Notes: generated by a model from the sequence alone, not told the origin. 64,000 nt of DNA from an uncultured Collinsella sp. (GCA_905213265.1 CAJMHR010000003.1:5411-69410); one strand, 5' to 3'; shown: positions 13,855-50,072, counted from the stretch's first letter. A program made the numbers and translations.

Positions 13855-14763
13855 CTAAAGAAGCTGGTTAACGCGCGCCTGAACTGCGTCATACAAAGAA
13901 CCGAGGCGACGCTTGCGCTCCTCGCCGTTGCCGTAGTCGCCGCGAATGACCGCTCTGGCGAGCGCATCGATGTCGGCACCTCCGGTCGCGCTGCCGTCAG
14001 CGCCAAGAATCTCGTTGACGCGTGCCTGTACGGCGTTGTAGTTGGAGCCGAGCGCGGCCTTGCGGGCGTCTCCGTTGCCGTACTTTCCCGCGATCACGTC
14101 ACGGGCCATCTGGTCGATGTCAACCGAGGGCGAGGAGGACGAGCCGCCGATGATGCGGTTGACCTCAGCCTGAACCTCATCGTAGCGGCTGCCCAGCGCG
14201 GCCTTGCGGGCGTCTCCGTTGCCGAACTCGCCGGCGATTACGCGCTTGGCAAGCTCGGTGACGCTGCCGGACGGCGAGGAGCCGCTGGACGGAGCCGAAG
14301 CCGAGCTTCCGCCCGTGATGCGCGCCTTCAGGGCGGCCCACTTACCTGCGTCGACGTAGGGAGCGGGGCAGCGCTTGCCGGTCACGTCATAGTGGCGGAT
14401 CACGCGGGTGATGCCGTAGGTCGCCCGAAGATACTCGTAGATCTGCGCGAGCGCGTTAATCTGGGCGTCGGTGAAATCCTCGCCAGCGCTCACCACCTCG
14501 ACGGAGACGGTGCGCTGGTTCTGCGGGAAGTTGCCGACGGCCCACGCCGTGTCCTCGAAGCGCACGGACTGGCGGATGGTGCCGTCCTTGTCCACGAACA
14601 AGTGGGCGGACGCGTTCGCGCCCGCGCGGGAGAAGTACACGAGGTTGTTGTGCGCGCTCGCGGAGGTAGCGGTGTAGTGCACCGCCATTCCGTCAATCGC
14701 GTTACCACCGCGCCCCTTGGTGTAGTTTGAGGCGTGGCACTGGATGAACTCAGCGATGTTCAT
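13855..14763 (-). CDS. Phage endolysin: N-acetylmuramoyl-L-alanine amidase (amidase_2/PGRP) with three C-terminal CW_7 cell-wall-binding repeats.
   Basis: RHYDVTGKRCP amidase motif. Three repeats of GxxGNGDARKAALGSxYxxVQAxVN. Confidence 0.8.
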   Translation of the reverse strand: MNIAEFIQCHASNYTKGRGGNAIDGMAVHYTATSASAHNNLVYFSRAGANASAHLFVDKDGTIRQSVRFEDTAWAVGNFPQNQRTVSVEVVSAGEDFTDAQINALAQIYEYLRATYGITRVIRHYDVTGKRCPAPYVDAGKWAALKARITGGSSASAPSSGSSPSGSVTELAKRVIAGEFGNGDARKAALGSRYDEVQAEVNRIIGGSSSSPSVDIDQMARDVIAGKYGNGDARKAALGSNYNAVQARVNEILGADGSATGGADIDALARAVIRGDYGNGEERKRRLGSLYDAVQARVNQLL

Positions 14764-14868: not shown

Positions 14869-15471
14869 CTAAACAGAACGTCCGATTGAGATGAAGTAGT
14901 CCCATGCAACGGCGTTGAACTCGTCGCAGGTAAGCGAAACGGGTTTCGCCTCGCACGGGTCGTGGATGGTTATGCGGTCATGAAGGTTCTCCGTTATGAG
15001 CACGACGTGGCCTCCGTACTCGCGCCCTCCCTCGTGGAGCGCGCCCTCCATGGTTCCGAACACCAGACGCCCGGCGGCGGACTCCTCAAGCGCCCGCGAT
15101 CTGTCCTCGTAGAGAACCGTGTAGTCGAGCTTCGGGTCTTGCTGCGCCATCCACTCGCAGAAGCCGGGCATGTAGTTCTGCCCGTCCTGAACGTAGTCGT
15201 TGCCCACGAGGTTGAGCAGCATGGGCGGCGTGCACGTCTCGCCAGAAAGCCTCTCCCAAGCCATGGCCGCGCACGTGAGACCGCAGCCGGACGTGGCGAG
15301 GTCTGCGCCGGCGTAGGGCAGCCCGCCCCACCGCTCGTCCGTCTGCATGTAGAGCGGGACTTGCGGCTCGGCGGGTGTGTCGTACACGACGGGGAGCTGC
15401 TCCGGCTCCTCCTCGACGGGCTGCGGCTGAGTCCATACCACGAGCGCGCCGAAGAGGAACAGGGCCACGAG
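14869..15471 (-). CDS. Papain-like cysteine peptidase (C39-like) with an N-terminal signal-anchor. Likely a second lysis enzyme. The start is uncertain; a GTG near 15471 is proposed.
   Basis: Catalytic SGCGLTCAAM and GGHVVLI motifs. A hydrophobic VALFLFGALVVW segment lies right after the holin stop. The upstream ORF part overlaps the holin in another frame. Confidence 0.5.
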   Translation of the reverse strand, partial: LVALFLFGALVVWTQPQPVEEEPEQLPVVYDTPAEPQVPLYMQTDERWGGLPYAGADLATSGCGLTCAAMAWERLSGETCTPPMLLNLVGNDYVQDGQNYMPGFCEWMAQQDPKLDYTVLYEDRSRALEESAAGRLVFGTMEGALHEGGREYGGHVVLITENLHDRITIHDPCEAKPVSLTCDEFNAVAWDYFISIGRSV

Positions 15472-15479
15472 AAGGAGCG

Positions 15480-15713
15480 CTACTGCTGCTTGGAGAGCGG
15501 GCTTGTGCCCTCCTCCACCTCCGGCACGCCAACGATGCTCGTGAGCACCGACGCGACCGCAGCCGTGGCCGCGAGCGCCGCGATCTGCGGCCAGTCCAGC
15601 GCGGTAATGGAGACCACGGTCGTTCCCATGGCGGCGAGCGCCGTCTGGGCTGCGGTCTTGACGGCGCGGACGCCCGCCGCGACGAACCACTTCTTGATTC
15701 CGTCCTTGGTCAT
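15480..15713 (-). CDS. Holin
   Basis: 77-aa protein with two predicted TM helices and a charged C-terminus, immediately upstream of the peptidase/amidase. Confidence 0.55.
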   Translation of the reverse strand: MTKDGIKKWFVAAGVRAVKTAAQTALAAMGTTVVSITALDWPQIAALAATAAVASVLTSIVGVPEVEEGTSPLSKQQ

Positions 15714-15727
15714 GGTTGAACCCCTTT

Positions 15728-16258
15728 CTAACCTTCATCGCCCGCTCCCTTGCGTCGGACGACGATTGCGTGAACCTCGTCAATCTGCTTGGCCATGTGG
15801 GATGTCGTCTGGTCGATGCGCTGGGCAGTTGCCTCGGTGTGCTCCAAGCGCCCGCCCATCTCGTGGCTGCGCTCCTTGGAGTCACCGACCTGTGTGGACA
15901 GGACTTCGAGAATCCGCGTCTGTGTCTGCTGCCCTGTTGAAAGCGCCTCTATGACTCGCGTCTGCTCGTTTTGAGCGGCCACCTGCTGCTGGGTGGTCTT
16001 GATGCGCTCGCGCTCGCGTGAGTCGAGGGCCTTGTCCGCCGTCTCCTGCACCTCGATGCGGTAGCGCTCGATCTCAAGCTTCTTCTCCTCGATGGCGCGC
16101 TCGTTCTCAAGCTGCTTCTCCTTGAGGGCGCGGCGCTGGGGCATTCCCCACTTGACGACCACGAAGCAGATAGCCGCAACGGTGAAGGCGAGGAGGGCGG
16201 CAAGCGGCTCGGCTATGGCGGCGGCCTCGAACCCTCCCGCTAGGGCATCCCCGCTCAT
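15728..16258 (-). CDS. Hypothetical membrane-anchored coiled-coil protein
   Basis: The N-terminal TM is followed by a long Glu/Gln/Arg-rich coiled coil. No recognisable catalytic motif. Confidence 0.4.
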   Translation of the reverse strand: MSGDALAGGFEAAAIAEPLAALLAFTVAAICFVVVKWGMPQRRALKEKQLENERAIEEKKLEIERYRIEVQETADKALDSRERERIKTTQQQVAAQNEQTRVIEALSTGQQTQTRILEVLSTQVGDSKERSHEMGGRLEHTEATAQRIDQTTSHMAKQIDEVHAIVVRRKGAGDEG

Positions 16259-16473
16259 GCCTCCTCCGGCACATAAGCCGAGGGGGCCGTCTCAAGCTCG
16301 GCCTCGCAGGCGTTGATCTTGGCGCGAAGCTCCTCGCGCTGAGCCTTGACCGGCTCCCATTCCTCATCTGGCATAACGCCGTCAGCGTGCTTGAGGGCCT
16401 TGTAGTCGCTCTGCACGAGAAGCTGCTTGTAACCGTTGATCTCGGCCTCGATGGCCTCTCTGGTTCGCTCCAT
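16255..16473 (-). CDS. Hypothetical small phage protein
   Basis: 72-aa ORF, start-stop coupled (ATGA) with the downstream gene. Confidence 0.35.
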   Translation of the reverse strand: MERTREAIEAEINGYKQLLVQSDYKALKHADGVMPDEEWEPVKAQREELRAKINACEAELETAPSAYVPEEA

Positions 16474-16549
16474 GGCGCACTCCTTTCATAGGGTGCGCAC
16501 ATCGTATGGGCGGCGTGAGATTACGCGGCGGCCTTGAGCCTAGTCAGGG

Positions 16550-17698
16550 TCAGGATTTCCGCTCCGGGGGGGGGTATTCATTGCCGAACAGCTCCTTGTA
16601 GAGCCTGTCCATGCTGAGGACGGTTTCGTGCGCGTCGAGCCTGAGCATGCCGCCGCGCCAGCTCTGGTATGACTGGTTTATCTGTCTCAGCGTTATCTCG
16701 CCACGGTCTAGCATGCGGCGCATCGCCTTGAGCTTGCGGCGCTCGCGGGTTATGGCCTCGCGGCTCGGGCGCACGACGACCTTGCCCGTGGGGCCGTAGT
16801 AGAACCGCTTCTTGAGGAACCTGAAGCCGCGCGATAGCTTGACGATACGCGTCTTCTTCTTGTTGATTGTGATGCCGAGGTCATCGCACAGTATCTCGAT
16901 GCAGGCCAAGACCAGCTTGAGCTTGTCCTTGCTCATGTCGATGTAGTAGGAATCGTCCATGTAGCGGCCCGTCGCCTCAAGCCCCGCCATCTCCTCCGCC
17001 CAGTGGTCGATGGGGTTCGGGAGCGCAACCGCGAGTATCTGGTTCGGCTCGCTTCCGAGGCCGAGGCCCACGTCGCCGCATGCGTCTATGAGGCTGTTTG
17101 TCAGCGCCACGAGACGTTCGTCATCGAGGGCCTTCATCACGAGCCGCTTGGCCGCGTCGTGGTCGATGCGCGCGAAGTAGTCGCTGAAGTCCACGAGCAG
17201 CACGTAGCCATCGGTTCCGTGCCGCCGGTAGTGGCGCGCGAGCTGGTTCTTGAGCCGCGCTATAGCGTAGTCGACGCCCCTGCCCTTCATGTTGGCGGAG
17301 TTGCCGGCGGTGAGCGTCGGCATGATCGCGGGGACGAGCGCGTTCTGGCTCAGCGACTTGTGTACGACCCGCTCGCTGAAGTGCACGGACGATATGTGCC
17401 GCAGCTTGCCGCGCTCAATGAGGTCGAACTCGTGGAAGCCGCGCCGGATGTCCTCGCCGTTCAGCAGGTCTTGGCGTGCCTTGTAGACGTTGCCCAGAAC
17501 GTGGAGGCAGTAGCCCTGAACGGACGCCTTCCACGACACACCGCGCCTCGACTTCATGGCGGCGTCGTAGAGCGCGTCCATGTCGGCGATACGCTCAAGC
17601 GTGAGGCCGTCTATTCTCTCGGCCCTGTTGCGGGCGCGCTTTTCCTCGCGCCTAGCCCTGCGGGCAGCGCGCCTGTCGTCTGAGTTCATGGAGGGCAC
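16550..17698 (-). CDS. DGR reverse transcriptase
   Basis: RT motifs: RHISSVHFSERVVHKSL (motif 2), SLSQNAL...GNSANMKGRGVDYA, RYMDDSYYI (YMDD, motif 5), GFRFL (motif 7). Size of 382 aa and adjacency to TR/VR. Confidence 0.8.
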   Translation of the reverse strand: MPSMNSDDRRAARRARREEKRARNRAERIDGLTLERIADMDALYDAAMKSRRGVSWKASVQGYCLHVLGNVYKARQDLLNGEDIRRGFHEFDLIERGKLRHISSVHFSERVVHKSLSQNALVPAIMPTLTAGNSANMKGRGVDYAIARLKNQLARHYRRHGTDGYVLLVDFSDYFARIDHDAAKRLVMKALDDERLVALTNSLIDACGDVGLGLGSEPNQILAVALPNPIDHWAEEMAGLEATGRYMDDSYYIDMSKDKLKLVLACIEILCDDLGITINKKKTRIVKLSRGFRFLKKRFYYGPTGKVVVRPSREAITRERRKLKAMRRMLDRGEITLRQINQSYQSWRGGMLRLDAHETVLSMDRLYKELFGNEYPPPERKS

Positions 17699-17902
17699 CC
17701 CGCACGGCTAGCAGTGGCGCTCGAACAGCCGCTTTGCGGGGAGGCCATGAAACCGGGCTGAGCGCCGGAGCGCCCGGCCATGCAAGAAGCGTCCGGCTCC
17801 CCGCGCGGGGTGCATATTTACGGCGCTGAGGCCGATGGTCGCGCCTTCCTTCCTCTTTGCGCTCGGCTTTCGGCTCTCGCTTACTCGGTCTGGCATTGAA
17901 AG

Positions 17903-18031
17903 GGAATCCGGGGCGGGGCCGCACCCACGTGTTGCGAGGGGAGTTGTTGTTGGCGTTGCCGTTGTTGTTGCAATAGCAGACGTTGGACGCCGACCCACCC
18001 ACGACGGAGCGAAGCCACCAATTGACGCGAA
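17903..18031 (-). repeat. DGR template repeat (TR), ~129 bp, non-coding, between avd and the RT gene.
   Basis: It aligns to the VR with all 13 mismatches at TR-coding-strand adenines. If translated it would be AAC/Asn-rich (NVCYCNNNGNANNNSPRN). Confidence 0.85.
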
Positions 18032-18047
18032 TAACAAAGCGCAACCG

Positions 18048-18545
18048 CTACGCATTATAGCCGCCCGGCTGTTCGAGCACCACGGCCTCTAGGCGCTCGG
18101 CCTCGGCCCTCGCGGCGGCAAGCCTGTCCTCCGCCGACTCCCTGCCGATTATGCGCGTGTACTTGCGCTTTTTGGAGACCTTGTCCGCCTCGTCGCGGAT
18201 CATTCCGGAGATGCGCTCAAGCTCGCTCGCGGTGGTGCACTTCATGGCGATGAGGCACTGGAGGTCCTGCTCAAGCTGGTCGCAGTCGGCCAGAGCGAGG
18301 CCGAGGTAGCGCTTTCGCTCAAGGACGTTGTACGAGTTGCTCGGGTAGAAGCGGTTGGCCCTGTTGACGTTGTAGACGAGCGAGCGGGCGGTCTCCGCGA
18401 TCGGAGCGCCCAGTATGAGCCGCTTGCGCTTGGGGACTACGCTCTCGCGCATCACGAGGGAAAGAACCTCGATACGGATGTCCACGGCGAGGCTCAAGTA
18501 GTCGGAATCGGCCTCTTTCCTGTTTCGCTCGAATACTTGGCTCAT
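18048..18545 (-). CDS. avd: DGR accessory variability determinant (Avd-like)
   Basis: 165-aa basic helical protein starting MSQVFERNRKEAD with a GGAGG RBS. Its position between the target gene and the TR is canonical for bAvd. Confidence 0.55.
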   Translation of the reverse strand: MSQVFERNRKEADSDYLSLAVDIRIEVLSLVMRESVVPKRKRLILGAPIAETARSLVYNVNRANRFYPSNSYNVLERKRYLGLALADCDQLEQDLQCLIAMKCTTASELERISGMIRDEADKVSKKRKYTRIIGRESAEDRLAAARAEAERLEAVVLEQPGGYNA

Positions 18546-18649
18546 TTCGCCTCCAAAAATCGGCCCGCTTCGCGGGCATATAAAAACAAAAGCAAAGGGC
18601 GACCGCGCAAGGCGGTCGCCGTAAGTATAGCTATGGTTCAGCTGAAGTC

Positions 18650-19525
18650 TCAGCTGAGGAGGAAGCCGGGGCGGGGCCGCACCCACGTGTAGCGAGGGGA
18701 GTCGCTGGCGGCGCCGCCGTTGCCGTGGCAAGAGCAGACGTTGGACGCCGACCCACCCACGACGGAGCGAAGCCACCAATAGACGCGAACTTTCGCGCGG
18801 TCCTTGGTCTGGCGGAAGATGGGAAGCTGGCAGCTCTCGCCCACGGAGTAGCCCTTGGTTCCCCACACGGGGCAGCCGTAGACCTCCATCTCGTTGAGCG
18901 ACCAGACCTTGCCGAGGTTGGCCCAAGACCAGCCCGTGGACTCCTCGACGTTGCCGCTCGCGCTGTAGCGCTCCTCAAGCAGGCACCGGCGGTCGATGAT
19001 GCGGTTGCGGAGCGCCTGCGGGAGCTTCGGGAAAAGCCACTCGGTCTCCCACTTGTGCAGGTTGCTGTTGAGGTACGGGTGCTTCTCCTCCGCCGTGCCC
19101 TGATTGCTCTCGGTGTCTCCCCAGTATAGGTACTGCCCGTCCGTCGTCTGCCAGTCCGGGTCGGTGATTGCGATGGGATCGAACAGGCACACGAGGTGAT
19201 GCTGGGTGAGCTGCGTGTCCATGGCGTTGAGGTAGGTGTCCATGCCCGCGATGCGCGCCGTGAGGTTGTTGCTCTCGACGGGAACGGTGAAGTAGTCGCC
19301 GATGCGCAGGTTGCCGAAGCCAGAGTCGCACAGCCCGCCGAGGTACGCGTAGAGGTCGGACTGCCCGGAGAACAGCGAGTTGAGGTTGCGGCCCGCGTAG
19401 ATGCCGTTGAACTCCTTGCGGTTGGTCTCAGCGTCAGCCGACGCCTGCGTTGCGGCGTCTCGCGCTACTTGGTCGATGATCGTGTAGTTGGTGCCCTTCA
19501 CGTTCATTGTCTTTGCGTCTGCCAT
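18650..19525 (-). CDS. DGR target protein (putative receptor-binding tail protein) with a C-terminal CLec/FGE-like variable region.
   Basis: 291 aa from MADAKTMNV (GGAAGGA RBS). The C-terminal ...VYWWLRSVVGGSASNVCSCHGNGGAASDSPRYTWVRPRPGF is encoded by the VR. It sits after the tail-fibre gene. Confidence 0.7.
   Translation of the reverse strand: MADAKTMNVKGTNYTIIDQVARDAATQASADAETNRKEFNGIYAGRNLNSLFSGQSDLYAYLGGLCDSGFGNLRIGDYFTVPVESNNLTARIAGMDTYLNAMDTQLTQHHLVCLFDPIAITDPDWQTTDGQYLYWGDTESNQGTAEEKHPYLNSNLHKWETEWLFPKLPQALRNRIIDRRCLLEERYSASGNVEESTGWSWANLGKVWSLNEMEVYGCPVWGTKGYSVGESCQLPIFRQTKDRAKVRVYWWLRSVVGGSASNVCSCHGNGGAASDSPRYTWVRPRPGFLLS
18661..18789 (-). repeat. DGR variable repeat (VR), at the 3' end of the target gene. 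An IMH-like G/C-rich end (GGCCCCGCCCCGGC) and hairpins follow downstream.
   Basis: ~90% identical to the TR. Differences occur only where the TR has A on the coding strand. Downstream are CAGCTGA-AGTCT-CAGCTGA and GCGACCGC-GCAA-GGCGGTCGC hairpins. Confidence 0.85.
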
Positions 19526-19538
19526 TGCGGTTTCCTTC

Positions 19539-20432
19539 CTATGCGAGGGTGATGGTCGTGCCGCTTGCCGAGCACGTCTGTCCGAATGTGAGGGTGCTGC
19601 CCTCGACCGTGACCTTCGATGCCGGGCAGTAGATCGTGCCGTCCATGTAGAAGAAGTCGTCGGTTGCGTCGGCGAGCATCGAGCCAAGCGTGTCGATCTG
19701 CCCGCGCATCTCTGCAACGTCCTCGTCTCCGACCACGCTCGATTGCAGGTTGTCCGCGACGCTGCGGGCGTAGGCGGCTGCGGTGTTGGCGTTCGATGCC
19801 GCGCCGTTCGCGGAGTTGATGCCGTTCTGAAGCTGCGTCTTGAGGCTCTGGTACTCGCTGACGCGCTGCTCCTCGGCCTCTACGCGCGCGGTCTCCTGCT
19901 CGACGCGGGTGTTCTCTGCGTTCTGGCGGGCCGTCTCGTTGCTCTTGCGGGTGTTTTCCGCGCTCACGCGCGCGGCCTCCTGCTTCTCCGCCTGCTTCTC
20001 GTAGGCGTCCCACTTCTCGTAGAGCTTGGTGAGCATGTCGTCGTAGAACCCGGCGGCCTCCTCCGGGTCGGAGGTGTCCACCGCAGGGAGCACGCGAAGC
20101 TCGAAGCCCTCGGTAGACTCGGCCTTGGTCGAGCCGCTGTAGAGCACGAAGTGCGCGAGCCTCGCGAGGCCCGGCGAGGACACAGCCTGAGACGGCAGCG
20201 TGCAGCTGACCGTGCTGCCGGAGACTGACGCAGTGCAGCGCGCCCACGTGCCGTCGGCCTTGAGGATGTCGAGGCGCGCCGTCATGTTGCTCGGCGTGTA
20301 GGCCGCTCCGTCGTTCATCAGCTGCGCCTTGATGGTCTGCGTTGAGACGTCCCCCTCGCGCACCACGACGCGGGGCGGGACTAGCGCCGTGGTCTTGTTT
20401 ACCTCAAGGATTATGTTGTGGGTTACGGCCAT
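19539..20432 (-). CDS. Phage tail fibre / receptor-binding protein with a central coiled coil
   Basis: 297 aa. ENTR-type heptad repeats (AENTRKSNETARQNAENTRVEQETARVEAEEQRV). Located after Tal. Confidence 0.45.
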   Translation of the reverse strand: MAVTHNIILEVNKTTALVPPRVVVREGDVSTQTIKAQLMNDGAAYTPSNMTARLDILKADGTWARCTASVSGSTVSCTLPSQAVSSPGLARLAHFVLYSGSTKAESTEGFELRVLPAVDTSDPEEAAGFYDDMLTKLYEKWDAYEKQAEKQEAARVSAENTRKSNETARQNAENTRVEQETARVEAEEQRVSEYQSLKTQLQNGINSANGAASNANTAAAYARSVADNLQSSVVGDEDVAEMRGQIDTLGSMLADATDDFFYMDGTIYCPASKVTVEGSTLTFGQTCSASGTTITLA

Positions 20433-20435
20433 ACG

Positions 20436-20813
20436 CTACTCGCCCCCATGTTCCATCATCCAGTCGATTGCCATGATCTCCTCACCGCTGAGCACTCCTA
20501 TAACGTCATCGGGGGTCGCCTTCATGATCTCGACATCGCGCTCGACCTCGGACACCTCACCCAGACGGCGAAGGAACTCTTGGTATCCCTCGCACTCAGG
20601 CGTTACGGCGAAGTTGACGACGTTTCCGCTGTCGTCCCTCACCTCCGTACCGTACTCGTGGATAAGCTCGTTTCTGAAGGCCTCGTAGTCGGCGATTGAA
20701 TCCATGATTGCGCGCATGTTCACGGCGGCCTTGTATCCGACGAGTGTCCTGCTCTTCATCACCGGCTCTAGCGATTTGGCCATCGCTTCAAGCTGAGCGT
20801 TCGTGTATGTCAT
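20436..20813 (-). CDS. Hypothetical phage protein
   Basis: 125-aa ORF in the tail module. No motif recognised. Confidence 0.35.
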   Translation of the reverse strand: MTYTNAQLEAMAKSLEPVMKSRTLVGYKAAVNMRAIMDSIADYEAFRNELIHEYGTEVRDDSGNVVNFAVTPECEGYQEFLRRLGEVSEVERDVEIMKATPDDVIGVLSGEEIMAIDWMMEHGGE

Positions 20814-20989: not shown

Positions 20990-23599
20990 CTAAATGATCA
21001 CGCCGTTTTTCACGTTCACGTCCCAGTAGGTTCCGCTTGGGGACGTGAGCCGCACCGTTCCCATGCTGCTGCCCGATACGAGCGTCTTGCCTCCAGAGAC
21101 GCCTCCGCTGTTGGGGTCAATCCAGAAGTTGCGTGCCTTGTAGTTCCTTCCGTCGAGATCGCACCCGATTGCGACCGTATCGGCAGTAAAGCCTCCGAAC
21201 GCCTTGTTGATGTACGAGAGCTTCATCGTGTACGAGTCGTCGGATGCTGCCTCTCTAACCGACCAAGTCATGTACGCGCCCTCGTCTTCGAGGTTGAACA
21301 CGAGGCCCCTCTTTGACGAGTCGCCCGTGTATCGGTTCGTGCCGATCTTGCCGATCTCGTAATCGGAGTAATAGAAATGGATGCCGTTGCTCATGAGCTT
21401 GAACGTGCTGTTTCCGATGTAGGAGTTCTCTATCGTGAGGCCGCCGATGTAGCCCGATGTGGTTCGCAGGTACCCGCTCGATAGGTTCCAGTAGTTCCTT
21501 CCTGAAGCGTCCGATATGGTTCCGGTCGCGATGTACGAGGCGTTGATGTAGAGCCTTTTGTTCGACAGGTATATTCCTTGCGTCTGCCCGTTGTTCGTGA
21601 GCCTGTTGAAGACCTCCTGCTGCGTGAGGTTGTCGTCAAGATCGTCGGTTGACTGGTTTCCAGACGTGAGCGCACGTGCGAGCGTAGGCGTTGTGTACGT
21701 CACCGTTCCGTCAGACCACGTTATGCGGCTGCGCGTCCAGTAGTAGCGCCCCTTGACCCAAGTCGGCTGCGCGCTCTGCCAAGAGCCGCCCGTCTGGGCG
21801 GTTTGGCTCGTTGAGAGGTAGTACTGCTCAACGACCTCAGCCGCGCCGATGCCCTTGTCGTTGGTTATGCGGCGCGGGGTCGTGTACTGCACCGAGCCGT
21901 CCGCGAGCGTCATCTTCACGCGCGTCCACATGTGCTTGCCCTGCTGCCAGAGGGCCGTGGTAGTCCAGCTCGTGGGCTGGGCCGAGGCGCTGTCGGAAAG
22001 ACCGTACTGCACGTCAGTAGACACAACCATCTCGCCGGCGGTCTTGTTGCCGACCGACGCCGTTGCGGATATGACCACCTCGCCGGAGTCGAAGTCGGCC
22101 ATGAAAACGGGGTCGTTGGGGTCTCCCACGAGCAGACGCCCGGCCTTGATGAGGTTGGCGAGCAGCGTTCCCGTGGTGATCCAGTCCGCCACGAAGCCCG
22201 CGCCGGTGCCGAAGGTGCGCCAGTCGTAGGAGCCGTCCGCCTTGGTGCCGTCCGCGATCCTGAAACCGAGCGAGCAGAGCTGCATCGCGGTTCCGCCCGT
22301 GGCCGTGGGCTGGCCGTCCTCGTCAAGCGGAACGCTTGAGAAGATGAAACCGTTCTGGTAGCTCACGTGCATGTAGCTCATGCCGTTCATGTTGAACTGC
22401 TCGTTGAGCGAGTCGATGAGCTGCTGGAGGAACGCGGGCGTGGTGCTCGCAACCGCGTCCCAGCTGCCGGACTGGTTCTGAAGGTTGGTGATCTGCTGCT
22501 GTTGCTGCTGCAAGATGTCGGCGATGCTCTCGGTGACGTTGCCAAGCGTGACCGTCCGCGTCTTGCCAAGCATGTCGATGACCTGCTTGGTGACGCGGCC
22601 CTGACAGCGCAGGGTCGGCTCGAAGCTTCCGTCTACCATCTGGGTATCGTCGCCGACGCCCACGCCCTCCCACGGGCGGCCCATGGCCACGAGGTCAACC
22701 ACGTCGGCCTCGTAGGTCACGCCCGGAATCTTGTGCTCGTCAAGGTAGGCCTGCGTCTCGCTTTTGAGCTGGCCCGCGTCCTCGCAGCTTGAGTTCTCGT
22801 ACTTGCCGAACACGTGGGCGAAGCCGCCCTTCCCGTCGGGACGGCCGTAGGTCTTGAGCGCGGTTGCGTCCTCAACGTAGTCCTTGCCTCCGTTGATGTC
22901 GCCGAACGTGAGCTTGCGCCCGTAGCCGCCCGTGTCGGTCTCGACGCCCTTGCCGTAGCCGTAGCACGCCGTGATAGCTCCCCAGTGCTCGGTGCGCTTG
23001 ATGCTGTTGATGTCCTTGCCATAGCTGAACCTGCGGTGCCCGTTGGCCTCGCCACGGTGCTTGAGTATCGAGACGCTGCGGCCCGTCACGCCGTTCGCCC
23101 CGACGGTGATGGAGGTCTCAAGCTCGCCGCCGCACGCAAGGATGTCGTTAAGGGCCGTTCGGCAGTCCGTATGGTAGAAGGTGAGGCCGCTTGAGACGGT
23201 TCCCGGCTGGTCTACCGTGCCGACATCCCAGCGGGTCGGCTTAAGGCACACCTCAAGCGCGCGCTGGAAGCTGTAGCCGTAGGGGCGCTTGTCCTCTATG
23301 TAGTCGCCGAAAAGCTCGCAGATGGAGTTGAGCGCCGTGTCGCTGTAGATGGGGAGGCCCGCCGCGCTCGCGCCCTTCGGGTCTTGGCACACGTGCTCGT
23401 GCGGCACGCCGTTCAGGTCTTGCCACACGAGGCGGTAGCCCTCCTTGAGCGGGAAGGTCGTGGTTATGTCTACGGTGTCCTCGCCGTTGAGGCAGTCCGT
23501 CCACACGAAGCCGAGGAGCTGGCGCGAACCGATGGTTCCGACGTAAGCGTCATGGCGGCTGTACACGTCAACCCTCATCACAGCCACCTCTCGTCCCAC
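20990..23599 (-). CDS. Tail-associated lysin / tail tip protein (Tal; prophage-tail endopeptidase-type minor structural protein)
   Basis: 869 aa directly after Dit. The N-terminal region resembles siphovirus gp/Tal structural domains. Typical size and position. Confidence 0.55.
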   Translation of the reverse strand: MGREVAVMRVDVYSRHDAYVGTIGSRQLLGFVWTDCLNGEDTVDITTTFPLKEGYRLVWQDLNGVPHEHVCQDPKGASAAGLPIYSDTALNSICELFGDYIEDKRPYGYSFQRALEVCLKPTRWDVGTVDQPGTVSSGLTFYHTDCRTALNDILACGGELETSITVGANGVTGRSVSILKHRGEANGHRRFSYGKDINSIKRTEHWGAITACYGYGKGVETDTGGYGRKLTFGDINGGKDYVEDATALKTYGRPDGKGGFAHVFGKYENSSCEDAGQLKSETQAYLDEHKIPGVTYEADVVDLVAMGRPWEGVGVGDDTQMVDGSFEPTLRCQGRVTKQVIDMLGKTRTVTLGNVTESIADILQQQQQQITNLQNQSGSWDAVASTTPAFLQQLIDSLNEQFNMNGMSYMHVSYQNGFIFSSVPLDEDGQPTATGGTAMQLCSLGFRIADGTKADGSYDWRTFGTGAGFVADWITTGTLLANLIKAGRLLVGDPNDPVFMADFDSGEVVISATASVGNKTAGEMVVSTDVQYGLSDSASAQPTSWTTTALWQQGKHMWTRVKMTLADGSVQYTTPRRITNDKGIGAAEVVEQYYLSTSQTAQTGGSWQSAQPTWVKGRYYWTRSRITWSDGTVTYTTPTLARALTSGNQSTDDLDDNLTQQEVFNRLTNNGQTQGIYLSNKRLYINASYIATGTISDASGRNYWNLSSGYLRTTSGYIGGLTIENSYIGNSTFKLMSNGIHFYYSDYEIGKIGTNRYTGDSSKRGLVFNLEDEGAYMTWSVREAASDDSYTMKLSYINKAFGGFTADTVAIGCDLDGRNYKARNFWIDPNSGGVSGGKTLVSGSSMGTVRLTSPSGTYWDVNVKNGVII

Positions 23600-24294
23600 T
23601 CGACGGTTGCGGTTCCGCCCGACACCATGAGGGATACGTCTCCCTCGATTGAGAAGAAGTCGCTCGTGATGTCAACGGCGTGGTCTGTCCCGTTGACCGT
23701 GCAGCGCTCAAGGCCCATATCGAGCACTACTGACTGCGACCCGGTGAAGCTCGCGAGCACCCGAACGTACTCGCCGGTGTCCACGTTGGTCAACTGCCAC
23801 TGGCTGCCCTTCGGCGGCTTGACCGTGACGACCGGGCGCGCCGGGTAGTTCCCGCCGACGCGCAGGCGCTTGGTTCCGCTCACGCTGGCGCTCCTGTGCT
23901 GGCCGTAGCTCACGGGATCGGCGCAGAGAAAAACGAGGTCGACGTCCGGCACGTGTGCGAGTTTGCTCGGCTCGGCCCCTCCCTCGTAGAGCGCCATGAG
24001 GTATGTGGTGGGGTCGTCCGGCAGGACAAGAGGCGCAGGCTGCTTGGCGCTCAGGCACGTTGCGAGGGCCTTGCGGGCGTCCGCGACGTCGCACATGAGG
24101 CGGCGGGTTATGCACCCGCTCACCGTGATCTCAACGGCGTCAAGCTCGACGGAGGACACGAGCGCGCCGTCCATGCCGGGAACCTGCGTCTGGGTGATGC
24201 GCCGCTTGGGGGCCACCTGCCGCTTCACGTCGGTCACCAGCATGTAGGGCGAGAGGTCGTGCCCGTCGAAGGCTATCCTCTGGTCGATGCTCAT
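23578..24294 (-). CDS. Distal tail protein (Dit, Sipho_tail family)
   Basis: 238 aa immediately downstream of the TMP, overlapping the Tal start. Canonical position. Confidence 0.55.
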   Translation of the reverse strand: MSIDQRIAFDGHDLSPYMLVTDVKRQVAPKRRITQTQVPGMDGALVSSVELDAVEITVSGCITRRLMCDVADARKALATCLSAKQPAPLVLPDDPTTYLMALYEGGAEPSKLAHVPDVDLVFLCADPVSYGQHRSASVSGTKRLRVGGNYPARPVVTVKPPKGSQWQLTNVDTGEYVRVLASFTGSQSVVLDMGLERCTVNGTDHAVDITSDFFSIEGDVSLMVSGGTATVEWDERWL

Positions 24295-27200
24295 ACGGCG
24301 TACCCCCTTCCGCGTGCCGTGATCTTGGAGTTCTGCGCGAGCGCGGCGGAAACCGCGTCAACGCCGATGTAGGCGTTGGTGTCCTTGGATGCTATCTCCC
24401 GCAGAAGATTCACCATCTCGCCCAGCATGGCGCGGAGCTGCGCGTCGTCATACGAGCCGGACGAGGCACCCGTGCCGTAGCCCACCGTGCGCACGCCGGA
24501 GGAGAAGCCGCCGCCGTTGGCCTCGAAGTACGAGGCGCTCGCGAGCCTTCTGGCCGCGTCGGAAACGGTTCCCTCGCCCTTGAGCATGCCGCTCGCGAAG
24601 TTCTGCGCGAGGTGCAGGCCGGAGGTCTCGCCGCCCCTCTCAGATCCCGCCCACGGGCCTTCCTTCGGCACGGAGAAGCCCATGGCGTTCTTCGCGGCCT
24701 GCACGACGCTCCACGCGGCGTTCGAGACCCACGTGATGCCCGCGCGGATGCCGCTCGCGAAGTTGCTCGCGAGGTGGCTGCCCCACCCGTAGGAGTTGCC
24801 CGCGTTCTGCATGTTGCTCGCCGCGCTGGCGAGGCTCCGCGCGTTGCTGCGGGTGGAGCCGACGCCGGAGCCGATGCCGCTGGCGAAGTTGCTTGAGGCG
24901 CTGCGGCCCTTGCTCGAAAGGTCTGAGGGCGTGCCGGAGACGCCGGACGAGGCGCTGCTGGCGAGGCTGCGGGCGCTTGAGGACACCGCGCCGATTCCCG
25001 CCGCGAGGCCGGACGAGAGGCCGCTTGAGGCCCTGCTGCCCGTGCTCTGCGCGTCCCCCGGAAGCCCGCTGATTCGGTCGATGAGCTGCTGACCGAGCTG
25101 CGCGATGGAGCTGAGCGGGCCGGACGTGTTGCCGCTGATGCCGTTTGACAGACCCGCGTCGACGTCGGAGCCGATGCGGTAGAACGCCTGAGACGGCGAG
25201 TGGGACTCCAGCGTGTCCTTGGCCTTGCTTATGACGTCCTCGCCGAGTAGCGCCGCCTGCTCCTCCGAGAGCGTCCCGTTTGCGATGCCGTCTGCAAGCC
25301 CCTGGTCGATGTCGTGGCCGAGGAGCTGTGCCGCCGCCGGAACGTCCCCGCCGGTGAGCTGAAGCGCGATCATCGACAGCATGGTGTTGGTCGCGCCGGA
25401 TGCCGTGAAGCTGTTGGCGGTGATCCCGTCCGCCACGCTCTGCGGGAGGCTGATTCCCGCGTTGCTCATCTGGGTGGAGACGCTAGACCAGTCGCCGGTC
25501 GCCGCTGCCTTGAGGATGCTCGTCGCGGTGTCCACGTTCACCGTGCCGCTCTGCATGCCGTTGGCCAAGGCGGTGGCGGCGTTCAGGCCCGCGTCGTTCA
25601 TCTCGATGCCCATGGTGTCGAGCGTCGTGATGATGCTCTGCGAGGTGCCGTCCCACGACGCCACCAGCTGCGTGAGCTGCTGGTCGTTCAAGCTGCGGAA
25701 CGTCTCGACCGAGACGCCCGCGTTGCTCAAGTCGTTGGCGAAGTCGTTGATGTCGCCGCCCACGGCGTTCATGGCCGTCGAGACCGTGGAGCTGGACAGC
25801 ACGAGGTTCTGCATGCTGAATGCGTTGCCGTCGGCTATGGCGGCCTGCGCCGTCATGGACGATGACACGTTGTTGATCGAGGTGTTGGTCGCGTCGAGGG
25901 CCGCCTGCGCGTCCTTCACCGCCTGCCCGTACTTGGAGTTCTCGGCGGATGCCTCCATGGTTGCGCGCGCCTGCTCCATGGTGATGGGAACCCCTTGCGC
26001 AGCCATGGTGTTGTAGTAGTTCTGCGCCATGGTGTCCATGTCGCCGTATACGTTGTTGTACTCCTGATGCGCTTGCGTCAGTGCGGTGATGTTCTCTGCC
26101 TGCTGCTGGTAGAGCGCGGAGAGGTTCTGCTGCTGCGCGTCGACCTGAATCTGCTGCATCTTCTGGTCGATGTAGCCGCCGAGCGACGCCGTGACGTCCT
26201 GAATGGCACCGTTCTCGTCCGCCAGCTTGCCGTTGGCGGCGTCCGTGACCTGAATCTGCGTGCCGCACAGGTCGTTCACCGTATCGACGGCGGTGCGGAG
26301 CCGCGCCTGCGCGTCGTTGGCGAGGTCGGTGTGGTTGGCGTACTGCTGGATGGTCGAGTAGGCCTGCTGAAGCTGCGCCATCTGGGCCGAGGCGCTGGTG
26401 TTGGTGTCGCTGATCGTCTGGGCGAGCTGGGCTTGGGACTCAAGCATCTCGTCAATGTCGACCTTGGCGACACCGGCGGAGGCCCCGTAGCCCTCCAAGG
26501 CGTCGGCCCCGGCGTTCGAGGCGCTCACGCCCTTCTCGGTCGCTGCGGTAAGGCCCTCCGTTGCCGCCTTCAGGTTGTCCTCGTGCTCCTTGGCCTCTTG
26601 GAACACTCCAACGAGGGCGGTTATTCCCGCGATGATCGCGAGCGGCGCGATGGTTGCCAGCGCGAGCTTGAGGCCGGTGGCCGCTACGGATGCGGCCTTC
26701 ATGGCCACGCTCTGAGCGGTCACGGCGGTGGTGCTCGCCTGCGCTGCGGTGGCCGAGGCCTTGTACCCCTCGACGGTGCCTTTGGCGGCGTCCATGGCGC
26801 TCTTGCGCTCGGACACCTCCTTCTGAAGGCTCTCAACAAGCTCTGAGTTGGCCTTGCTGCCCTTCTTCTGCTCGCGCTCAAGATCGCGCACGGAGGCGTT
26901 GTACCTTGACTGCGCCGTGTTGGCCTCGGTAACGGCGTCGATGTACTTCTGCACGCCGCCCGCCGCCTTGGCCGCCGGGTTCTTCTCAAGCGCCTTCGAC
27001 AGCTTCTCGTTGCCCTGATACGCCTTGAGTGATGCGACGTTGGTCGTCGTGAGCGCGTCGGCGTATGTGGCCACGTCCTGCTTGGCCCTGCCGAACGCCG
27101 TGACCATGGAGCCTACGCCCTTGGTTATGCGCCCGGTGACGGACAGCACGGGGCCTGCCGCCGCCGCTACGAGGCCGAAGCCGATGACGGTCTGCTGCGT

Positions 27201-49633: not shown

Positions 49634-50072
49634 TGAAAAGTTCGCAGTTGAGTGGTGGTTTGAGGACAAAAGCCCTTGGGTCAATTGTGGTGATCGCCTG
49701 TTTGAAAGCAGCTGTACGAGGTCTGTTTACGATGATGAGAGCAGAAGCTTTAGTGATGTGGTTGCCCTCGGCCTTTTTACGCCAGATAACGAGCTGGTTG
49801 GATATGTCCCTAAAGAACTAGAGGCTTCAGCACGAGACGCAATGTCATCAGGCCTTGAAACGGTCGTTGTTGAGGAATACGACGGTGAGCTGAACTATGC
49901 CCCTGTTGTTCGCATGACAGACTCAGAAGCAAGAAGCGCCGAGCTAAAGCAAAGTGAAGACGCTTCAAAGAAAGGCACCAGAAGCGCTTATCTTTTTGCC
50001 GCGCTTGTCACCCTTGCCATATGCGCCGTTATCGGAGTTGTTCTTGGGAACCTGATAAGCGCCATAGGATAA
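49614..50072 (+). CDS. Hypothetical membrane-anchored protein between the repressor and the integrase
   Basis: 152 aa with a C-terminal TM (AYLFAALVTLAICAVIGVVLGNLI). Moron position. Confidence 0.4.
   Translation: MMAKMLDEKFAVEWWFEDKSPWVNCGDRLFESSCTRSVYDDESRSFSDVVALGLFTPDNELVGYVPKELEASARDAMSSGLETVVVEEYDGELNYAPVVRMTDSEARSAELKQSEDASKKGTRSAYLFAALVTLAICAVIGVVLGNLISAIG

What the first reader, a model, noticed from the sequence alone, without database searches (positions are those of the whole stretch)
16550..19525. Complete diversity-generating retroelement (DGR) in the prophage tail module
Two ~129-bp repeats are ~90% identical. All 13 mismatches fall where the RT-proximal copy (TR, 17903-18031) has A on the coding strand. 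The gene-embedded copy (VR, 18661-18789) has C, G, T or A at those positions. This is the adenine-specific mutagenesis signature of DGRs. The TR is AAC-rich: it would encode NVCYCNNNGNANNNSPRN against the VR-encoded SCHGNGGAASDSPRY. A 382-aa RT with YMDD sits immediately downstream of the TR. An Avd-like 165-aa gene sits between the VR and TR. The VR forms the C-terminus of a 291-aa protein that follows the tail fibre gene, which suggests receptor-binding diversification. IMH-like GC-rich ends and two hairpins follow the VR.
Basis: seen in the sequence. Interest (0 to 1): 0.9.

Follow-up and report, generated by a model that had tools for sequence, protein, structure and literature searches.

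The report
Active diversity-generating retroelement in Collinsella prophage
This is a complete, ordinary-type diversity-generating retroelement in a Collinsella prophage that rewrites the tip of a tail protein at template adenines; it is a new member of a known gut-phage family, and its spacer turns out to be the orphan Rfam RNA "RT-2".

Summary
TR (17903-18031) and VR (18661-18789) are 129-nt repeats on the minus strand. All 13 mismatches fall at TR adenines (P about 5e-12).

The cassette is canonical: target gene, avd-like gene, TR, spacer RNA, RT. It lies between the baseplate genes and the lysis genes of a roughly 38-kb siphovirus-like prophage of Collinsella.
- **RT:** its best solved relative is the Bordetella DGR RT, bRT.
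- **Avd-like protein:** the 165-aa protein has no Pfam hit. It folds as an Avd-type four-helix bundle and is 33% identical to the annotated Avd of Roseburia phage Shimadzu.
- **Target:** a DUF6273 protein, a published DGR target class.

In 48 near relatives from metagenomes, protein variation piles up on the adenine-templated codons. Twenty-one related loci show the same adenine-only TR/VR pattern.

One addition: the TR-to-RT spacer is a full-length match to the orphan Rfam family RT-2 (138.5 bits). Across 49 non-redundant RT-2 loci, two covarying helices (TR 3' end:spacer, then upstream-of-TR:spacer, 2 nt apart) reproduce the BPP-1 template:primer plus 'cPRT Stop' geometry.

Verdict: real, well supported, a new member of a known kind. 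Interest is modest.

The parts
18650..19525 (-). DGR target gene (291 aa, DUF6273 domain); probable receptor-binding or tail-tip protein
   Evidence: ORF. Pfam DUF6273 E 8.7e-9. 651 homologues, all DUF6273. BFVD fold hits to DUF6273, tail-collar fibre and RBP proteins. 34% identical to the Shimadzu tail fibre orf22.
18661..18789 (-). Variable repeat (VR), last 43 codons of the target
   Evidence: It differs from the TR only at TR adenines. Across relatives, variation is concentrated at these sites.
18666..18680 (-). G+C-only block at the VR 3' end (IMH-like); the same block is in the TR at 17908-17922
   Evidence: The fixed VR C / TR A difference at 18665/17907 follows it directly.
18638..18657 (-). 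Hairpin H0 (8-bp stem, loop GACT) starting 3 nt after the VR homology and spanning the stop codon; candidate DGR target hairpin/cruciform
   Evidence: Folded (the 120-nt region has z -5.2). L015 has a 9-bp version with a compensatory A-T to G-C change and loop GAAT. The loop matches 3 of 4 positions of the published GRNA consensus (PMC3240598).
18598..18620 (-). Hairpin H1 (9-bp GC-rich stem, 5-nt loop, T-rich tail): terminator-like
   Evidence: Conserved in L015 with a 10-bp stem.
18563..18577 (-). Hairpin H2 (GCCCGC-GAA-GCGGGC followed by a T run): terminator-like, just upstream of the avd ribosome-binding site
   Evidence: Sequence identical in L015.
18048..18545 (-). avd-like accessory gene (165 aa), divergent from the Pfam Avd models, with an extra C-terminal helix
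18036..18046 (-). Upstream arm (GGTTGCGCTTT) of the upstream:spacer duplex ('cPRT Stop'-like), between the avd stop codon and the TR
   Evidence: Pairs with 17837-17847. G-C to A-T compensatory change in L015. The equivalent duplex covaries across 49 loci.
17903..18031 (-). Template repeat (TR): 23 adenines, including 10 AAY codons in the VR frame
   Evidence: Near-invariant among strains, while their VRs differ.
17900..17906 (-). TR-side strand (TTCCCTT) of the template:primer-like helix; TR A17907 lies immediately 5' of it
   Evidence: 6 of 7 pairs form in this genome. The helix covaries across 31 gap-free loci.
17675..17898 (-). Spacer RNA between TR and RT = Rfam RF03077 'RT-2 RNA', full length
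   Evidence: 138.5 bits against a gathering score of 40, model positions 1-222/222. Same position in L004, L013, L015-L021 and Shimadzu.
17850..17857 (-). Spacer-side strand (AAGAGGAA) of the template:primer-like helix; A17850 is the candidate priming nucleotide (inferred by analogy with BPP-1 Sp A56)
   Evidence: Analogy taken from bioRxiv 10.1101/2023.10.23.563531.
17837..17847 (-). Spacer-side strand (AAGGCGCGACC) of the 'cPRT Stop'-like duplex, 2 nt (GG) after the previous helix
16550..17698 (-). DGR reverse transcriptase (382 aa from GTG 17698; alternative ATG at 17689)
   Evidence: RVT_1. phrog_1423 E 8e-64. Best PDB hit is bRT 8ub7_A. YMDD present. bRT R74 equivalent conserved; I181 equivalent is L; Q187 equivalent conserved; motif reads LGSEPNQ.
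18066..18087 (-). 5' arm of a 22-nt long-range helix with 17710-17731, enclosing TR plus spacer; strain-cluster-specific, function unproven
   Evidence: I2. 0 of 200 shuffles reach its score. Absent in L015, and the changes in L007, L008 and L013 are non-compensatory.
17710..17731 (-). 3' arm of the long-range helix; lies in the last hairpin of RT-2
19539..20432 (-). Context: BppU_N-domain (baseplate upper protein-like) gene immediately upstream of the target

Best explanation
The region is a complete diversity-generating retroelement (DGR) carried by a roughly 38-kb siphovirus-like prophage of Collinsella. It diversifies the C-terminal 43 codons of a DUF6273 (C-type-lectin-like) protein encoded directly after the baseplate genes.

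**Shown here**
- The TR/VR pair has adenine-only differences.
- All genes are intact and in the canonical order: target(VR), avd, TR, spacer, RT.
- The RT is DGR-type and the accessory protein has the Avd fold.
- In related strains the TR stays nearly constant while the VRs differ at the adenine-templated sites about ten times more often than the rest of the gene.
- The spacer is a full-length RT-2 RNA.
- In this RNA family, two helices covary: TR 3' end with spacer, and upstream-of-TR with spacer, separated by 2 nt.

**Inferred by analogy with Bordetella phage BPP-1**
1. A transcript covering the avd 3' end, TR and spacer binds an RT-Avd complex.
2. The spacer strand 17850-17857 pairs with 17900-17906, so that A17850 primes cDNA synthesis in cis. 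Synthesis starts at or next to TR A17907.
3. The RT copies the TR faithfully except opposite adenines.
4. Synthesis stops at the duplex 18036-18046:17837-17847, just upstream of the TR.
5. The cDNA replaces the VR, guided by the G+C-rich IMH-like end and perhaps by hairpin 18638-18657.

With 10 AAY codons plus TAT and ACG, about 10^13 protein variants are accessible without stop codons (my arithmetic from the TR sequence). The likely benefit is a change of receptor specificity of the phage.
For: - **Adenine-specific mismatches:** 13 of 13 at TR adenines, P about 5e-12.
- **Same pattern in relatives:**
  - Six Collinsella genome loci show 58 of 61 TR/VR mismatches at TR-A.
  - The IMG/VR relatives, down to 39% RT identity, show the same pattern.
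  - So do 99 of 103 RT-2-bearing loci that have a detectable repeat (1515 of 1668 mismatches at A among the 103).
- **Protein entropy hot spots** in 48 near relatives: residues 249, 262, 265, 267-269, 271 and 273-275 exceed 1.5 bits, as does 279. These are exactly the A-containing codons.
- **VR versus the rest of the gene:** compared with the window, relatives with a fully aligned VR differ at 10-15 of 23 A sites and at 0-6 of 106 other VR sites. The rest of the gene differs by 4-7%.
- **Strain polymorphisms at non-A positions** are shared by the TR and VR of the same locus.
- **RT:** bRT is the best PDB hit. Phage DGR RTs are the nearest deposited relatives. Matches to defence-RT, retron and group II models are weak and sub-threshold.
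- **Avd:** fold and homology to an annotated Avd.
- **Target:** DUF6273, a published DGR target domain with a C-lectin-like fold (PMC11792537; PMC10743442).
- **Spacer RNA:** RT-2.
- **Covarying helices:** helix 1 scores 7.06 of 8 pairs against 5.53 +/- 0.16 for permuted partners. Helix 2 scores 11.44 against 7.62 +/- 0.18, and 44 of 49 start exactly 2 nt after helix 1. This matches the BPP-1 RNP geometry.
- **Prophage context:** tape measure, Dit, Tal, BppU_N, portal, terminase, major head protein, serine integrase, holin and lysin.
Against: - No experiment or read-level data for this genome were available. Activity is inferred from between-strain comparison, so this particular copy could be silent.
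- The RT motif 4 reads LGSEPNQ rather than the usual ...SQ.
- The Avd-like protein is not recognised by Pfam or NCBIfam. Only 2 of 42 family members touch the Avd models, and weakly.
- None of the three hairpins fits the published cruciform consensus completely (7-10 bp GC-rich stem, 4-nt GRNA loop).
- In this genome helix 1 has one C-A mismatch (6 of 7 pairs).
- The priming nucleotide and the cDNA limits are assigned by analogy only.
Confidence: 0.93

Rival explanations
1. The cassette is a real DGR by descent, but this copy is now inactive (a relic). The VR/TR differences were then inherited from an active ancestor.
For: No read-level or experimental data exist for this genome. The closest relatives still differ by 4-7% outside the VR, so the diversification cannot be dated to this strain. 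The RT motif reads NQ instead of SQ.
Against: All three ORFs are intact, with catalytic YMDD and the conserved bRT R74 and Q187 equivalents. The TR retains all its adenines and is identical to that of L005 and L011, whose VRs differ. RT-2 and both helices are intact. L015, the other member of the NQ clade examined (77% RT identity), also shows adenine-only mismatches.
Confidence: 0.08
2. The DGR is active, but the target is not a receptor-binding protein of the virion. It could, for example, be a lysogen surface or other ligand-binding protein expressed from the prophage.
Against: The gene sits directly after Dit, Tal and a BppU_N baseplate gene, on the same strand, and before the lysis module. 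It is 34% identical to the annotated tail fibre protein of Roseburia phage Shimadzu. BFVD fold hits include tail-collar fibre and receptor-binding proteins. DUF6273 DGR targets in other gut phages are interpreted as tail proteins.
Confidence: 0.1
3. The repeats are an ordinary duplication or gene-conversion tract next to an unrelated retroelement RT (group II intron, retron or defence RT).
For: NCBIfam gives only sub-threshold hits, the best to group II intron RT/maturase (50.8 bits against a cut-off of 300). PADLOC gives weak generic RT and DRT hits.
Against: The adenine-only mismatch pattern is essentially impossible by chance. It recurs in about 100 independent loci. bRT outranks group II RTs in the PDB search. 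No Rfam family other than RT-2 and tRNA-Glu, and so no intron or retron RNA family, matches anywhere in the window.
Confidence: 0.01

Closest known systems
Bordetella phage BPP-1 DGR (mtd-avd-TR-brt), the prototype
   Same: - Same gene order: target with a C-terminal VR, avd, TR, spacer, RT.
- Adenine-specific TR-to-VR differences and a G+C-rich IMH-like end.
- Hairpins downstream of the VR.
- RT closest to bRT among solved structures, and an Avd-fold accessory protein.
- Spacer RNA with a TR 3' end:spacer helix, a 2-nt linker and an upstream:spacer duplex, as in the bRT-Avd-RNA cryo-EM structure.
   Different: - The spacer belongs to Rfam RT-2, not RT-10 (BPP-1; PMC5737381). It is about 205 nt against 140 nt.
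- The nucleotide 5' of the template:primer helix is A, not G.
- Avd is 165 aa with an extra C-terminal helix and has no detectable sequence similarity to bAvd.
- The target is DUF6273 rather than Mtd.
- RT motif is NQ rather than SQ.
- The host is a Gram-positive gut actinobacterium.
Roseburia phage Shimadzu DGR (LR596903.1) and the Faecalibacterium phages Roos, Pioen and Lelie (PMC11792537)
   Same: Shimadzu has the same cassette in the same order, next to the tail genes and before the lysis genes:
- RT 47% identical
- annotated Avd 33% identical (E 2e-18)
- tail fibre protein 34% identical (E 3e-39)
- RT-2 RNA at 144.9 bits

The Faecalibacterium phage targets carry DUF6273 with the VR at its C-terminus.
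   Different: The host phylum differs (Actinomycetota against Bacillota). Shimadzu appears to have a contractile-tail module (baseplate J and P2_I proteins), whereas this prophage has Dit, Tal and BppU. The target here is shorter (291 against 431 aa). There is no DNA-level similarity to any deposited phage.
Rfam RF03077 RT-2 RNA (Weinberg et al. 2017, PMC5737381)
   Same: Full-length match far above the gathering score (138.5 against 40 bits). It lies upstream of an RT gene, as described for the RT-1 to RT-19 motifs.
   Different: The source paper assigns only RT-10 to a DGR and only speculates about the others. Here RT-2 is always found directly after a TR (99 A-biased TR/VR pairs). Its 'single-stranded' purine-rich segment pairs with sequences outside the Rfam model: the TR 3' end and the segment upstream of the TR.

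Membership tests
Diversity-generating retroelement (DGR) | TR/VR repeat pair whose differences fall (almost) only at TR adenines | tested here: met
   13 of 13 mismatches at TR-A, P about 5e-12. Same in related loci.
Diversity-generating retroelement (DGR) | VR lies inside a protein-coding target gene, typically at its 3' end, with AAY-rich TR codons | tested here: met
   The VR is the last 43 codons of ORF 18650-19525. The TR frame has 10 AAY codons. 12 of the 13 differences from the TR are at codon positions 1 or 2. The exception is the synonymous site 18665.
Diversity-generating retroelement (DGR) | RT of the DGR clade adjacent to the TR | tested here: met
   Best PDB hit is bRT 8ub7_A, E 9e-12, against 7e-5 for group II RTs. 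phrog_1423 E 8e-64. Nearest deposited relatives are RTs of DGR phages. No full phylogeny was built.
Diversity-generating retroelement (DGR) | RT motif 4 signature [I/L/V]GxxxSQ (as I recall it from the DGR literature; bRT IGSLTSQ seen) | tested here: inconclusive
   The motif reads LGSEPNQ. L, G and Q are kept; S is replaced by N in the window and in L015. Relatives at about 40% identity have LGSQVSQ. The adenine-only pattern persists in the NQ clade.
Diversity-generating retroelement (DGR) | Accessory variability determinant (Avd, four-helix bundle) or another accessory gene | tested here: met
Diversity-generating retroelement (DGR) | IMH: G+C-rich element at the VR 3' end, with a distinguishing IMH* in the TR | tested here: met
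   A 15-nt G+C-only block is present in both repeats. A fixed C/A difference at 18665/17907 follows it (C in 10 of 11 VRs). Sequence diverges completely after position 129. Function not tested.
Diversity-generating retroelement (DGR) | Hairpin/cruciform downstream of the VR (7-10 bp GC-rich stem, 4-nt GRNA loop, 4-34 bp from the VR; PMC3240598) | tested here: inconclusive
   Three hairpins are present. H0 has 8 bp, loop GACT and 50% GC, and is supported by one compensatory change in L015. H1 is GC-rich but has a 5-nt loop. H2 has 6 bp and a 3-nt loop. None fits every criterion.
Diversity-generating retroelement (DGR) | Hypervariability of the VR among closely related genomes, restricted to adenine-templated sites, with a stable TR | tested here: met
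   The target's clusters at 90% identity hold 107-313 distinct sequences.
Diversity-generating retroelement (DGR) | Structured RNA flanking the TR with a template:primer duplex and an upstream:spacer ('cPRT Stop') duplex (BPP-1 RNP, bioRxiv 10.1101/2023.10.23.563531) | tested here: met
   Both helices are present in the window. Both are supported by partner-permutation tests on 31 and 49 non-redundant loci.
Diversity-generating retroelement (DGR) | Target variable region displayed on a C-type-lectin (or Ig-like) fold | tested here: inconclusive
Diversity-generating retroelement (DGR) | Demonstrated RT-dependent mutagenic retrohoming (cDNA, RT-mutant dependence) | not testable with these tools
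   Requires experiments or read-level data.
Rfam RF03077 (RT-2 RNA) | Covariance-model score at or above the curated gathering score, full-length | tested here: met
   138.5 bits against 40, model positions 1-222 of 222, E 2.6e-32.

The most novel reading that the evidence does not exclude
The orphan Rfam family RT-2 (RF03077) may be the self-priming spacer RNA of a large clade of gut Gram-positive phage DGRs. It shares no family assignment with the BPP-1 spacer (RT-10), yet it keeps the same core geometry. A 7-bp helix joins the TR 3' end to the spacer. Two unpaired nucleotides follow, then an 8-13-bp helix between the spacer and the segment just upstream of the TR. On this reading A17850 is the branch-point primer, and the cDNA limits are set at about 17907 and about 18035. 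A more speculative extra concerns the TRs of some relatives, which carry their own VR's substitutions and even the VR-type IMH base. This could be real VR-to-TR back-conversion, that is, a template that evolves.
Probability: 0.7. Interest if true: 0.42.

Novelty: new member of a known kind. Interest (0 to 1): 0.3.

Why it matters
The element itself is a textbook DGR in a host genus (Collinsella, Coriobacteriia) where I found no published description of a DGR. It adds a clean, apparently active example with abundant natural VR variants for studying phage-host recognition in a common human gut actinobacterium.

The more useful by-product is functional. An Rfam RNA of unknown role (RT-2) can now be read as a DGR spacer RNA. 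Its two covarying long-range helices reproduce the priming and stop architecture seen in the BPP-1 cryo-EM structure.

This supports the idea that the cis-priming mechanism is conserved across distant DGRs. It also gives precise, testable nucleotide assignments for engineering or annotating these elements.

Tried and rejected
- **blastn of the cassette against deposited phages:** no match. Only protein-level relatives exist.
- **Exact look-up of the target protein's contig:** not on record, so the source record was not identified. The host is inferred from nine Collinsella genome loci with 97-99% identical RT.
- **Sequence searches of the Avd-like protein against PDB:** no meaningful hit, whether as a single sequence, a 14-sequence profile or a 42-sequence profile. 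Only fold comparison and the Shimadzu homologue linked it to Avd.
- **The 22-nt long-range helix 18066-18087 / 17710-17731:** at first it looked like the cPRT Stop duplex. I rejected that reading. The helix is missing in the 77%-identity relative L015, and its changes in L007, L008 and L013 are not compensatory. The conserved duplex is the shorter one, at 18036-18046 / 17837-17847.
- **Global RNAduplex of upstream region against spacer:** uninformative.
- **Naive helix scans of the TR 3' end against the spacer in five loci:** not significant. The helix became clear only after aligning 49 loci.
- **Cluster members of 371 aa (P0003, P0155) and 165 aa (P0135):** I considered them as target variants. 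They are VR/TR-collapsed chimeras and Avd proteins respectively, not variants.
- **Retron, group II intron and defence-RT readings:** considered and rejected.


Full report
**1. Observation**

The repeat finder reports one outstanding direct repeat in 15500-20500: 17903-18031 and 18661-18789, 129 nt, 90% identical. Read on the minus strand, the 13 differences are all A in the RT-proximal copy. In the gene-embedded copy they are G (7), C (4) or T (2).

The TR has 23 adenines in 129 positions. The chance that 13 random positions are all adenines is about 4.9e-12. Homology stops abruptly on both sides. No further copy exists in the 64-kb window, even when adenine positions are ignored.

Twelve of the 13 changes are at codon positions 1 or 2 of the ORF 18650-19525. 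The thirteenth (18665) is a synonymous third position.

**2. Anatomy**

All parts are on the minus strand, in this order.
- **BppU_N-domain gene:** 19539-20432.
- **Target gene:** 18650-19525, 291 aa, Pfam DUF6273, E 8.7e-9.
- **Three hairpins:**
  - H0, 18638-18657: 8-bp stem, loop GACT, spans the stop codon.
  - H1, 18598-18620: 9 bp, T-rich tail.
  - H2, 18563-18577: 6 bp, T tail.
- **avd-like gene:** a GGAGG ribosome-binding site, then the 165-aa ORF 18048-18545.
- **TR:** starts 17 nt after the avd-like ORF and runs 18031 to 17903.
- **Spacer:** 204 nt.
- **RT:** 382 aa, 16550-17698, RVT_1, phrog_1423 E 8e-64, YMDD.

The surroundings are a prophage.
- Tail and baseplate: tape measure 24291-28412, Dit 23578-24294, Tal-like Prophage_tail 20990-23599.
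- Head and packaging: major head protein, portal and large terminase.
- Integration: a large serine recombinase at 50021-51595, next to tRNA-Glu.
- Lysis, downstream of the RT: an r1t-type holin (15480-15713), a C39_2-like peptidase and an Amidase_2+CW_7 lysin (13855-14763).
- Host flanks: type III glutamine synthetase and MetH on one side, and a MurT/GatD-like fusion on the other.

Related IMG/VR viral contigs are 37-39 kb. That fits a prophage of about 38 kb.

**3. Host and relatives**

A genome scan with the RT found nine loci, all in Collinsella genomes or MAGs, with 97-99% identical RT. IMG/VR gave twelve more. These include a 77%-identity relative (L015) and a group at about 40% identity (L016-L021).

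No deposited phage matches at DNA level. At protein level the nearest is Roseburia phage Shimadzu (RT 47%), followed by unannotated phage sequences from human faecal samples and the Faecalibacterium phages Roos, Pioen and FP_Taranis. Shimadzu has the same cassette:
- tail fibre protein 34% identical to the target (E 3e-39)
- annotated Avd 33% identical to the 165-aa protein (E 2e-18)
- an RT-2 RNA
- the RT

**4. Is it a DGR? Tests of the defining features**

(a) *Adenine specificity recurs.*
- Six Collinsella loci with both repeats show 58 of 61 TR/VR mismatches at TR adenines.
- L015-L021 show 14 to 23 mismatches each, all but one at A.

(b) *Population variability.* The target's clusters at 90% identity contain 313, 293 and 107 distinct sequences.
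- In an alignment of 48 near relatives, entropy above 1.5 bits in the C-terminal half occurs only at residues 249, 262, 265, 267-269, 271, 273-275 and 279. These are precisely the codons that contain adenine in the TR.
- At DNA level, relatives with a fully aligned VR differ from the window at 10-15 of the 23 A sites, but at only 0-6 of the 106 other VR sites. The rest of the gene differs by 4-7%.
- TRs are nearly invariant. Those of L005 and L011 are identical to the window's, while their VRs differ.
- Non-adenine strain polymorphisms (positions 30 and 38) are shared by the TR and VR of the same locus. That is what TR-to-VR information transfer predicts.

(c) *RT.* The best solved relative is 8ub7_A (E 9e-12), ahead of group II intron RTs (7e-5).
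- The bRT residues reported to contact template and incoming nucleotide have equivalents here: R74 is R, I181 is L and Q187 is Q.
- The motif reads LGSEPNQ in the window and in L015 (77% RT identity). It reads LGSQVSQ in the relatives at about 40% identity. This is a lineage-specific S-to-N change that evidently does not abolish the adenine pattern.
- NCBIfam and PADLOC give only weak, sub-threshold hits to group II, retron and DRT models.

(d) *Avd.*
- Sequence models fail: no Pfam hit, and phrog_3206 'Avd protein of DGR' only at E 1e-3.
- PDB sequence searches are also empty.
- The family has 419 representatives at 50% identity. Only 2 of 42 sampled members touch PF05635 or PF22296.
- The AF2 model (pLDDT 82) is a four-helix bundle with an extra C-terminal helix.

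(e) *Target.*
- DUF6273 is a published DGR target domain with its VR at the C-terminus (Faecalibacterium phages). It is reported as C-type-lectin-like.
- My own model is mediocre: pLDDT 71, and below 50 for residues 250-261 within the VR-encoded region.
- BFVD hits are DUF6273, tail-collar fibre and receptor-binding proteins.

(f) *IMH and hairpin.*
- A 15-nt G+C-only block ends both repeats.
- The next base is A in the TR and C in 10 of 11 VRs, although the site is synonymous. This is most simply a fixed IMH*/IMH difference just outside the transferred segment.
- The published target hairpin has a 7-10-bp GC-rich stem, a 4-nt GRNA loop, and lies 4-34 bp from the VR.
- H0 has the right position, stem length and loop size, and one compensatory change in L015. 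Its stem is only 50% GC and its loop is GACT.
- H1 and H2 look like terminators.
- I leave this feature undecided.

**5. The spacer is the Rfam RT-2 RNA and carries BPP-1-like long-range helices**

A scan of the whole window against Rfam gave only tRNA-Glu and RF03077 (RT-2 RNA). The RT-2 match is at 17675-17898(-), 138.5 bits against a gathering score of 40, and full length. [quoted passage not shown]

The same holds in L004, L013, L015-L021 (132-156 bits) and in phage Shimadzu. The paper that defined the RT-1 to RT-19 motifs assigned only RT-10 to a DGR (BPP-1) and speculated that others might be DGR parts.

I used the invariant RT-2 core (CGGACGCTNCTTGCATGG, 17778-17795) to fish IMG/VR.
- 131 oriented loci had enough flank.
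- 103 of them had a repeat of the segment just upstream.
- 99 of those pairs were adenine-biased.
- Among the 103 pairs, 1515 of 1668 mismatches were at A.

So RT-2 is, in practice, a DGR spacer.

In 49 non-redundant loci, two helices that lie partly outside the Rfam model covary.
- **Helix 1** pairs the 7 nt that follow a conserved GGA/TGA at the TR 3' end with the 7 nt that precede a conserved GGAG in the spacer.
  - Examples: TTTTGCG:CGCAAAA, TTCCATA:TATGGAA, TTTCACA:TGTGAAA.
  - In fixed register, the 31 gap-free loci form 7.06 of 8 pairs.
  - Permuted partners form 5.53 +/- 0.16 (maximum 6.06 in 2000 permutations).
- **Helix 2** pairs the spacer strand that starts exactly 2 nt later (44 of 49 loci) with a segment 0-38 nt upstream of the TR.
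  - It has 8-13 bp and very diverse sequences. Examples: AGGTTATATTCC:GGAATATAACCT, CGGTTCCGTGCT:AGCGCGGGACCG.
  - Mean score is 11.44, against 7.62 +/- 0.18 for permuted partners under the same best-helix search.

This is the geometry described for the BPP-1 ribonucleoprotein. There, TR117-129 pairs with Sp47-56, with priming from Sp A56. Two nucleotides follow, then the 11-bp avd:Sp 'cPRT Stop' duplex at which cDNA synthesis ends.

In the window:
- Helix 1 is 17900-17906 (TTCCCTT) with 17850-17857 (AAGAGGAA). Six of 7 pairs form, with one C-A mismatch.
- The linker is GG, 17848-17849.
- Helix 2 is 18036-18046 (GGTTGCGCTTT) with 17837-17847 (AAGGCGCGACC). It has 11 pairs, and L015 carries a G-C to A-T compensatory change.

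By analogy, which is inference and not shown:
- A17850 is the priming nucleotide.
- TR A17907 is the first template position. This would explain why that position is not transferred to the VR.
- cDNA ends about 4 nt upstream of the TR/VR homology.

**6. Mechanism**

*Shown:* the sequence signature, the complete parts list, conservation and covariation, and the population-level outcome.

*Inferred from the BPP-1 literature:* an RT-Avd complex binds the TR-spacer RNA. It primes in cis, misincorporates opposite adenines, stops at helix 2, and the cDNA replaces the VR through the IMH-like end.

The TR design is 10 AAY codons, one TAT and one ACG. It gives about 15^10 x 4 x 4, or roughly 10^13, protein variants with no stop codons (my arithmetic).

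The position after Dit, Tal and BppU, together with homology to a tail fibre protein, makes receptor-binding diversification the likely purpose.

**7. Comparison and novelty**

This is a member of the DGR family by all features that could be tested in silico. It belongs to a clade already represented by described gut phages (Shimadzu, Roos, Pioen) whose targets carry DUF6273.

It is new as a Collinsella example. My literature searches found no description of a Collinsella DGR.

Three minor peculiarities are an Avd lineage invisible to Pfam, an NQ variant of RT motif 4, and a strain-specific 22-nt long-range helix.

The RT-2 assignment, and the two helices that extend beyond the Rfam model, are the only points I did not find stated in the papers I read. 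They confirm a published speculation and a published claim of conservation rather than overturning anything.

**8. Verdict**

The finding is real and correctly interpreted. It is a new member of a known kind, and interest is modest (0.3). Confidence that it is a DGR is about 0.93 or higher. Confidence in the detailed priming assignments is about 0.6-0.7.

Noticed in passing
window 17675-17898 (-): Full-length match to the orphan Rfam family RT-2 (RF03077, 138.5 bits), exactly filling the TR-to-RT spacer. In IMG/VR the RT-2 core motif is almost always preceded by an adenine-biased TR.
   Followed up: yes
window 18066-18087 and 17710-17731 (-): A 22-nt near-perfect long-range helix joins the avd 3' coding end to the last hairpin of RT-2, enclosing TR plus spacer (0 of 200 shuffles reach its score). 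It is present only in the near-identical Collinsella strains. It is deleted in L015, and its changes in L007, L008 and L013 are non-compensatory. Function unknown.
   Followed up: partly
L004/L010 5668-5796 and 3668-3796; L013 3668-3796; L003 and L009 5668-5796: In some relatives the TR itself differs from the window TR at adenine positions. In L004/L010 and L013 it carries the same bases as its own VR. In L004/L010 (Collinsella sp. An7) this includes the VR-type C at position 125. This is either short-read VR/TR chimerism or real VR-to-TR conversion. Conversely, the VR of L011 has the TR-type A at position 125.
   Followed up: partly
proteins P0003, P0155 (371 aa) and P0135/P0136 (165 aa) in the target's clusters: Some 'target' cluster members are fusions. 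The ORF runs from the target N-terminus through an unmutated NNN-type repeat into the frame downstream of the TR. This indicates assemblies or genomes in which VR and TR have collapsed and avd is deleted. The 165-aa members of cluster 2 are actually Avd proteins.
   Followed up: partly
window 16550-17698 (-), RT residues about 215-221: RT motif 4 reads LGSEPNQ in the window and L015 (77% RT identity). It reads LGSQVSQ in relatives at about 40% identity, and IGSLTSQ in bRT. This is a lineage-specific S-to-N substitution next to the conserved Q.
   Followed up: partly
window 50021-51630: The large serine recombinase ORF (50021-51595, +) overlaps by 42 nt the antisense tRNA-Glu(ttc) gene (51554-51630, -) at the prophage edge. 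The attachment site and exact prophage ends were not mapped.
   Followed up: no
window 14869-15885 (-): A Peptidase_C39_2-like domain protein lies between the r1t-type holin (15480-15713) and the Amidase_2+CW_7 lysin (13855-14763). It is possibly a second cell-wall hydrolase. The long ORF call overlaps the holin gene, so its true start is probably internal.
   Followed up: no
window 18624-18653 (-): The single sigma-70-like promoter match in the cassette lies right after the target's stop codon, upstream of hairpins H1 and H2 and of avd. It could drive avd-TR-RT transcription separately from the late operon. This is a consensus match only.
   Followed up: no
window 51729-53906 (-): A host gene encodes a single 725-aa protein that combines MurT-like (Mur_ligase_M, MurT_C) and GatD-like (GATase_3) domains. 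These are usually two separate proteins in Gram-positive peptidoglycan amidation.
   Followed up: no
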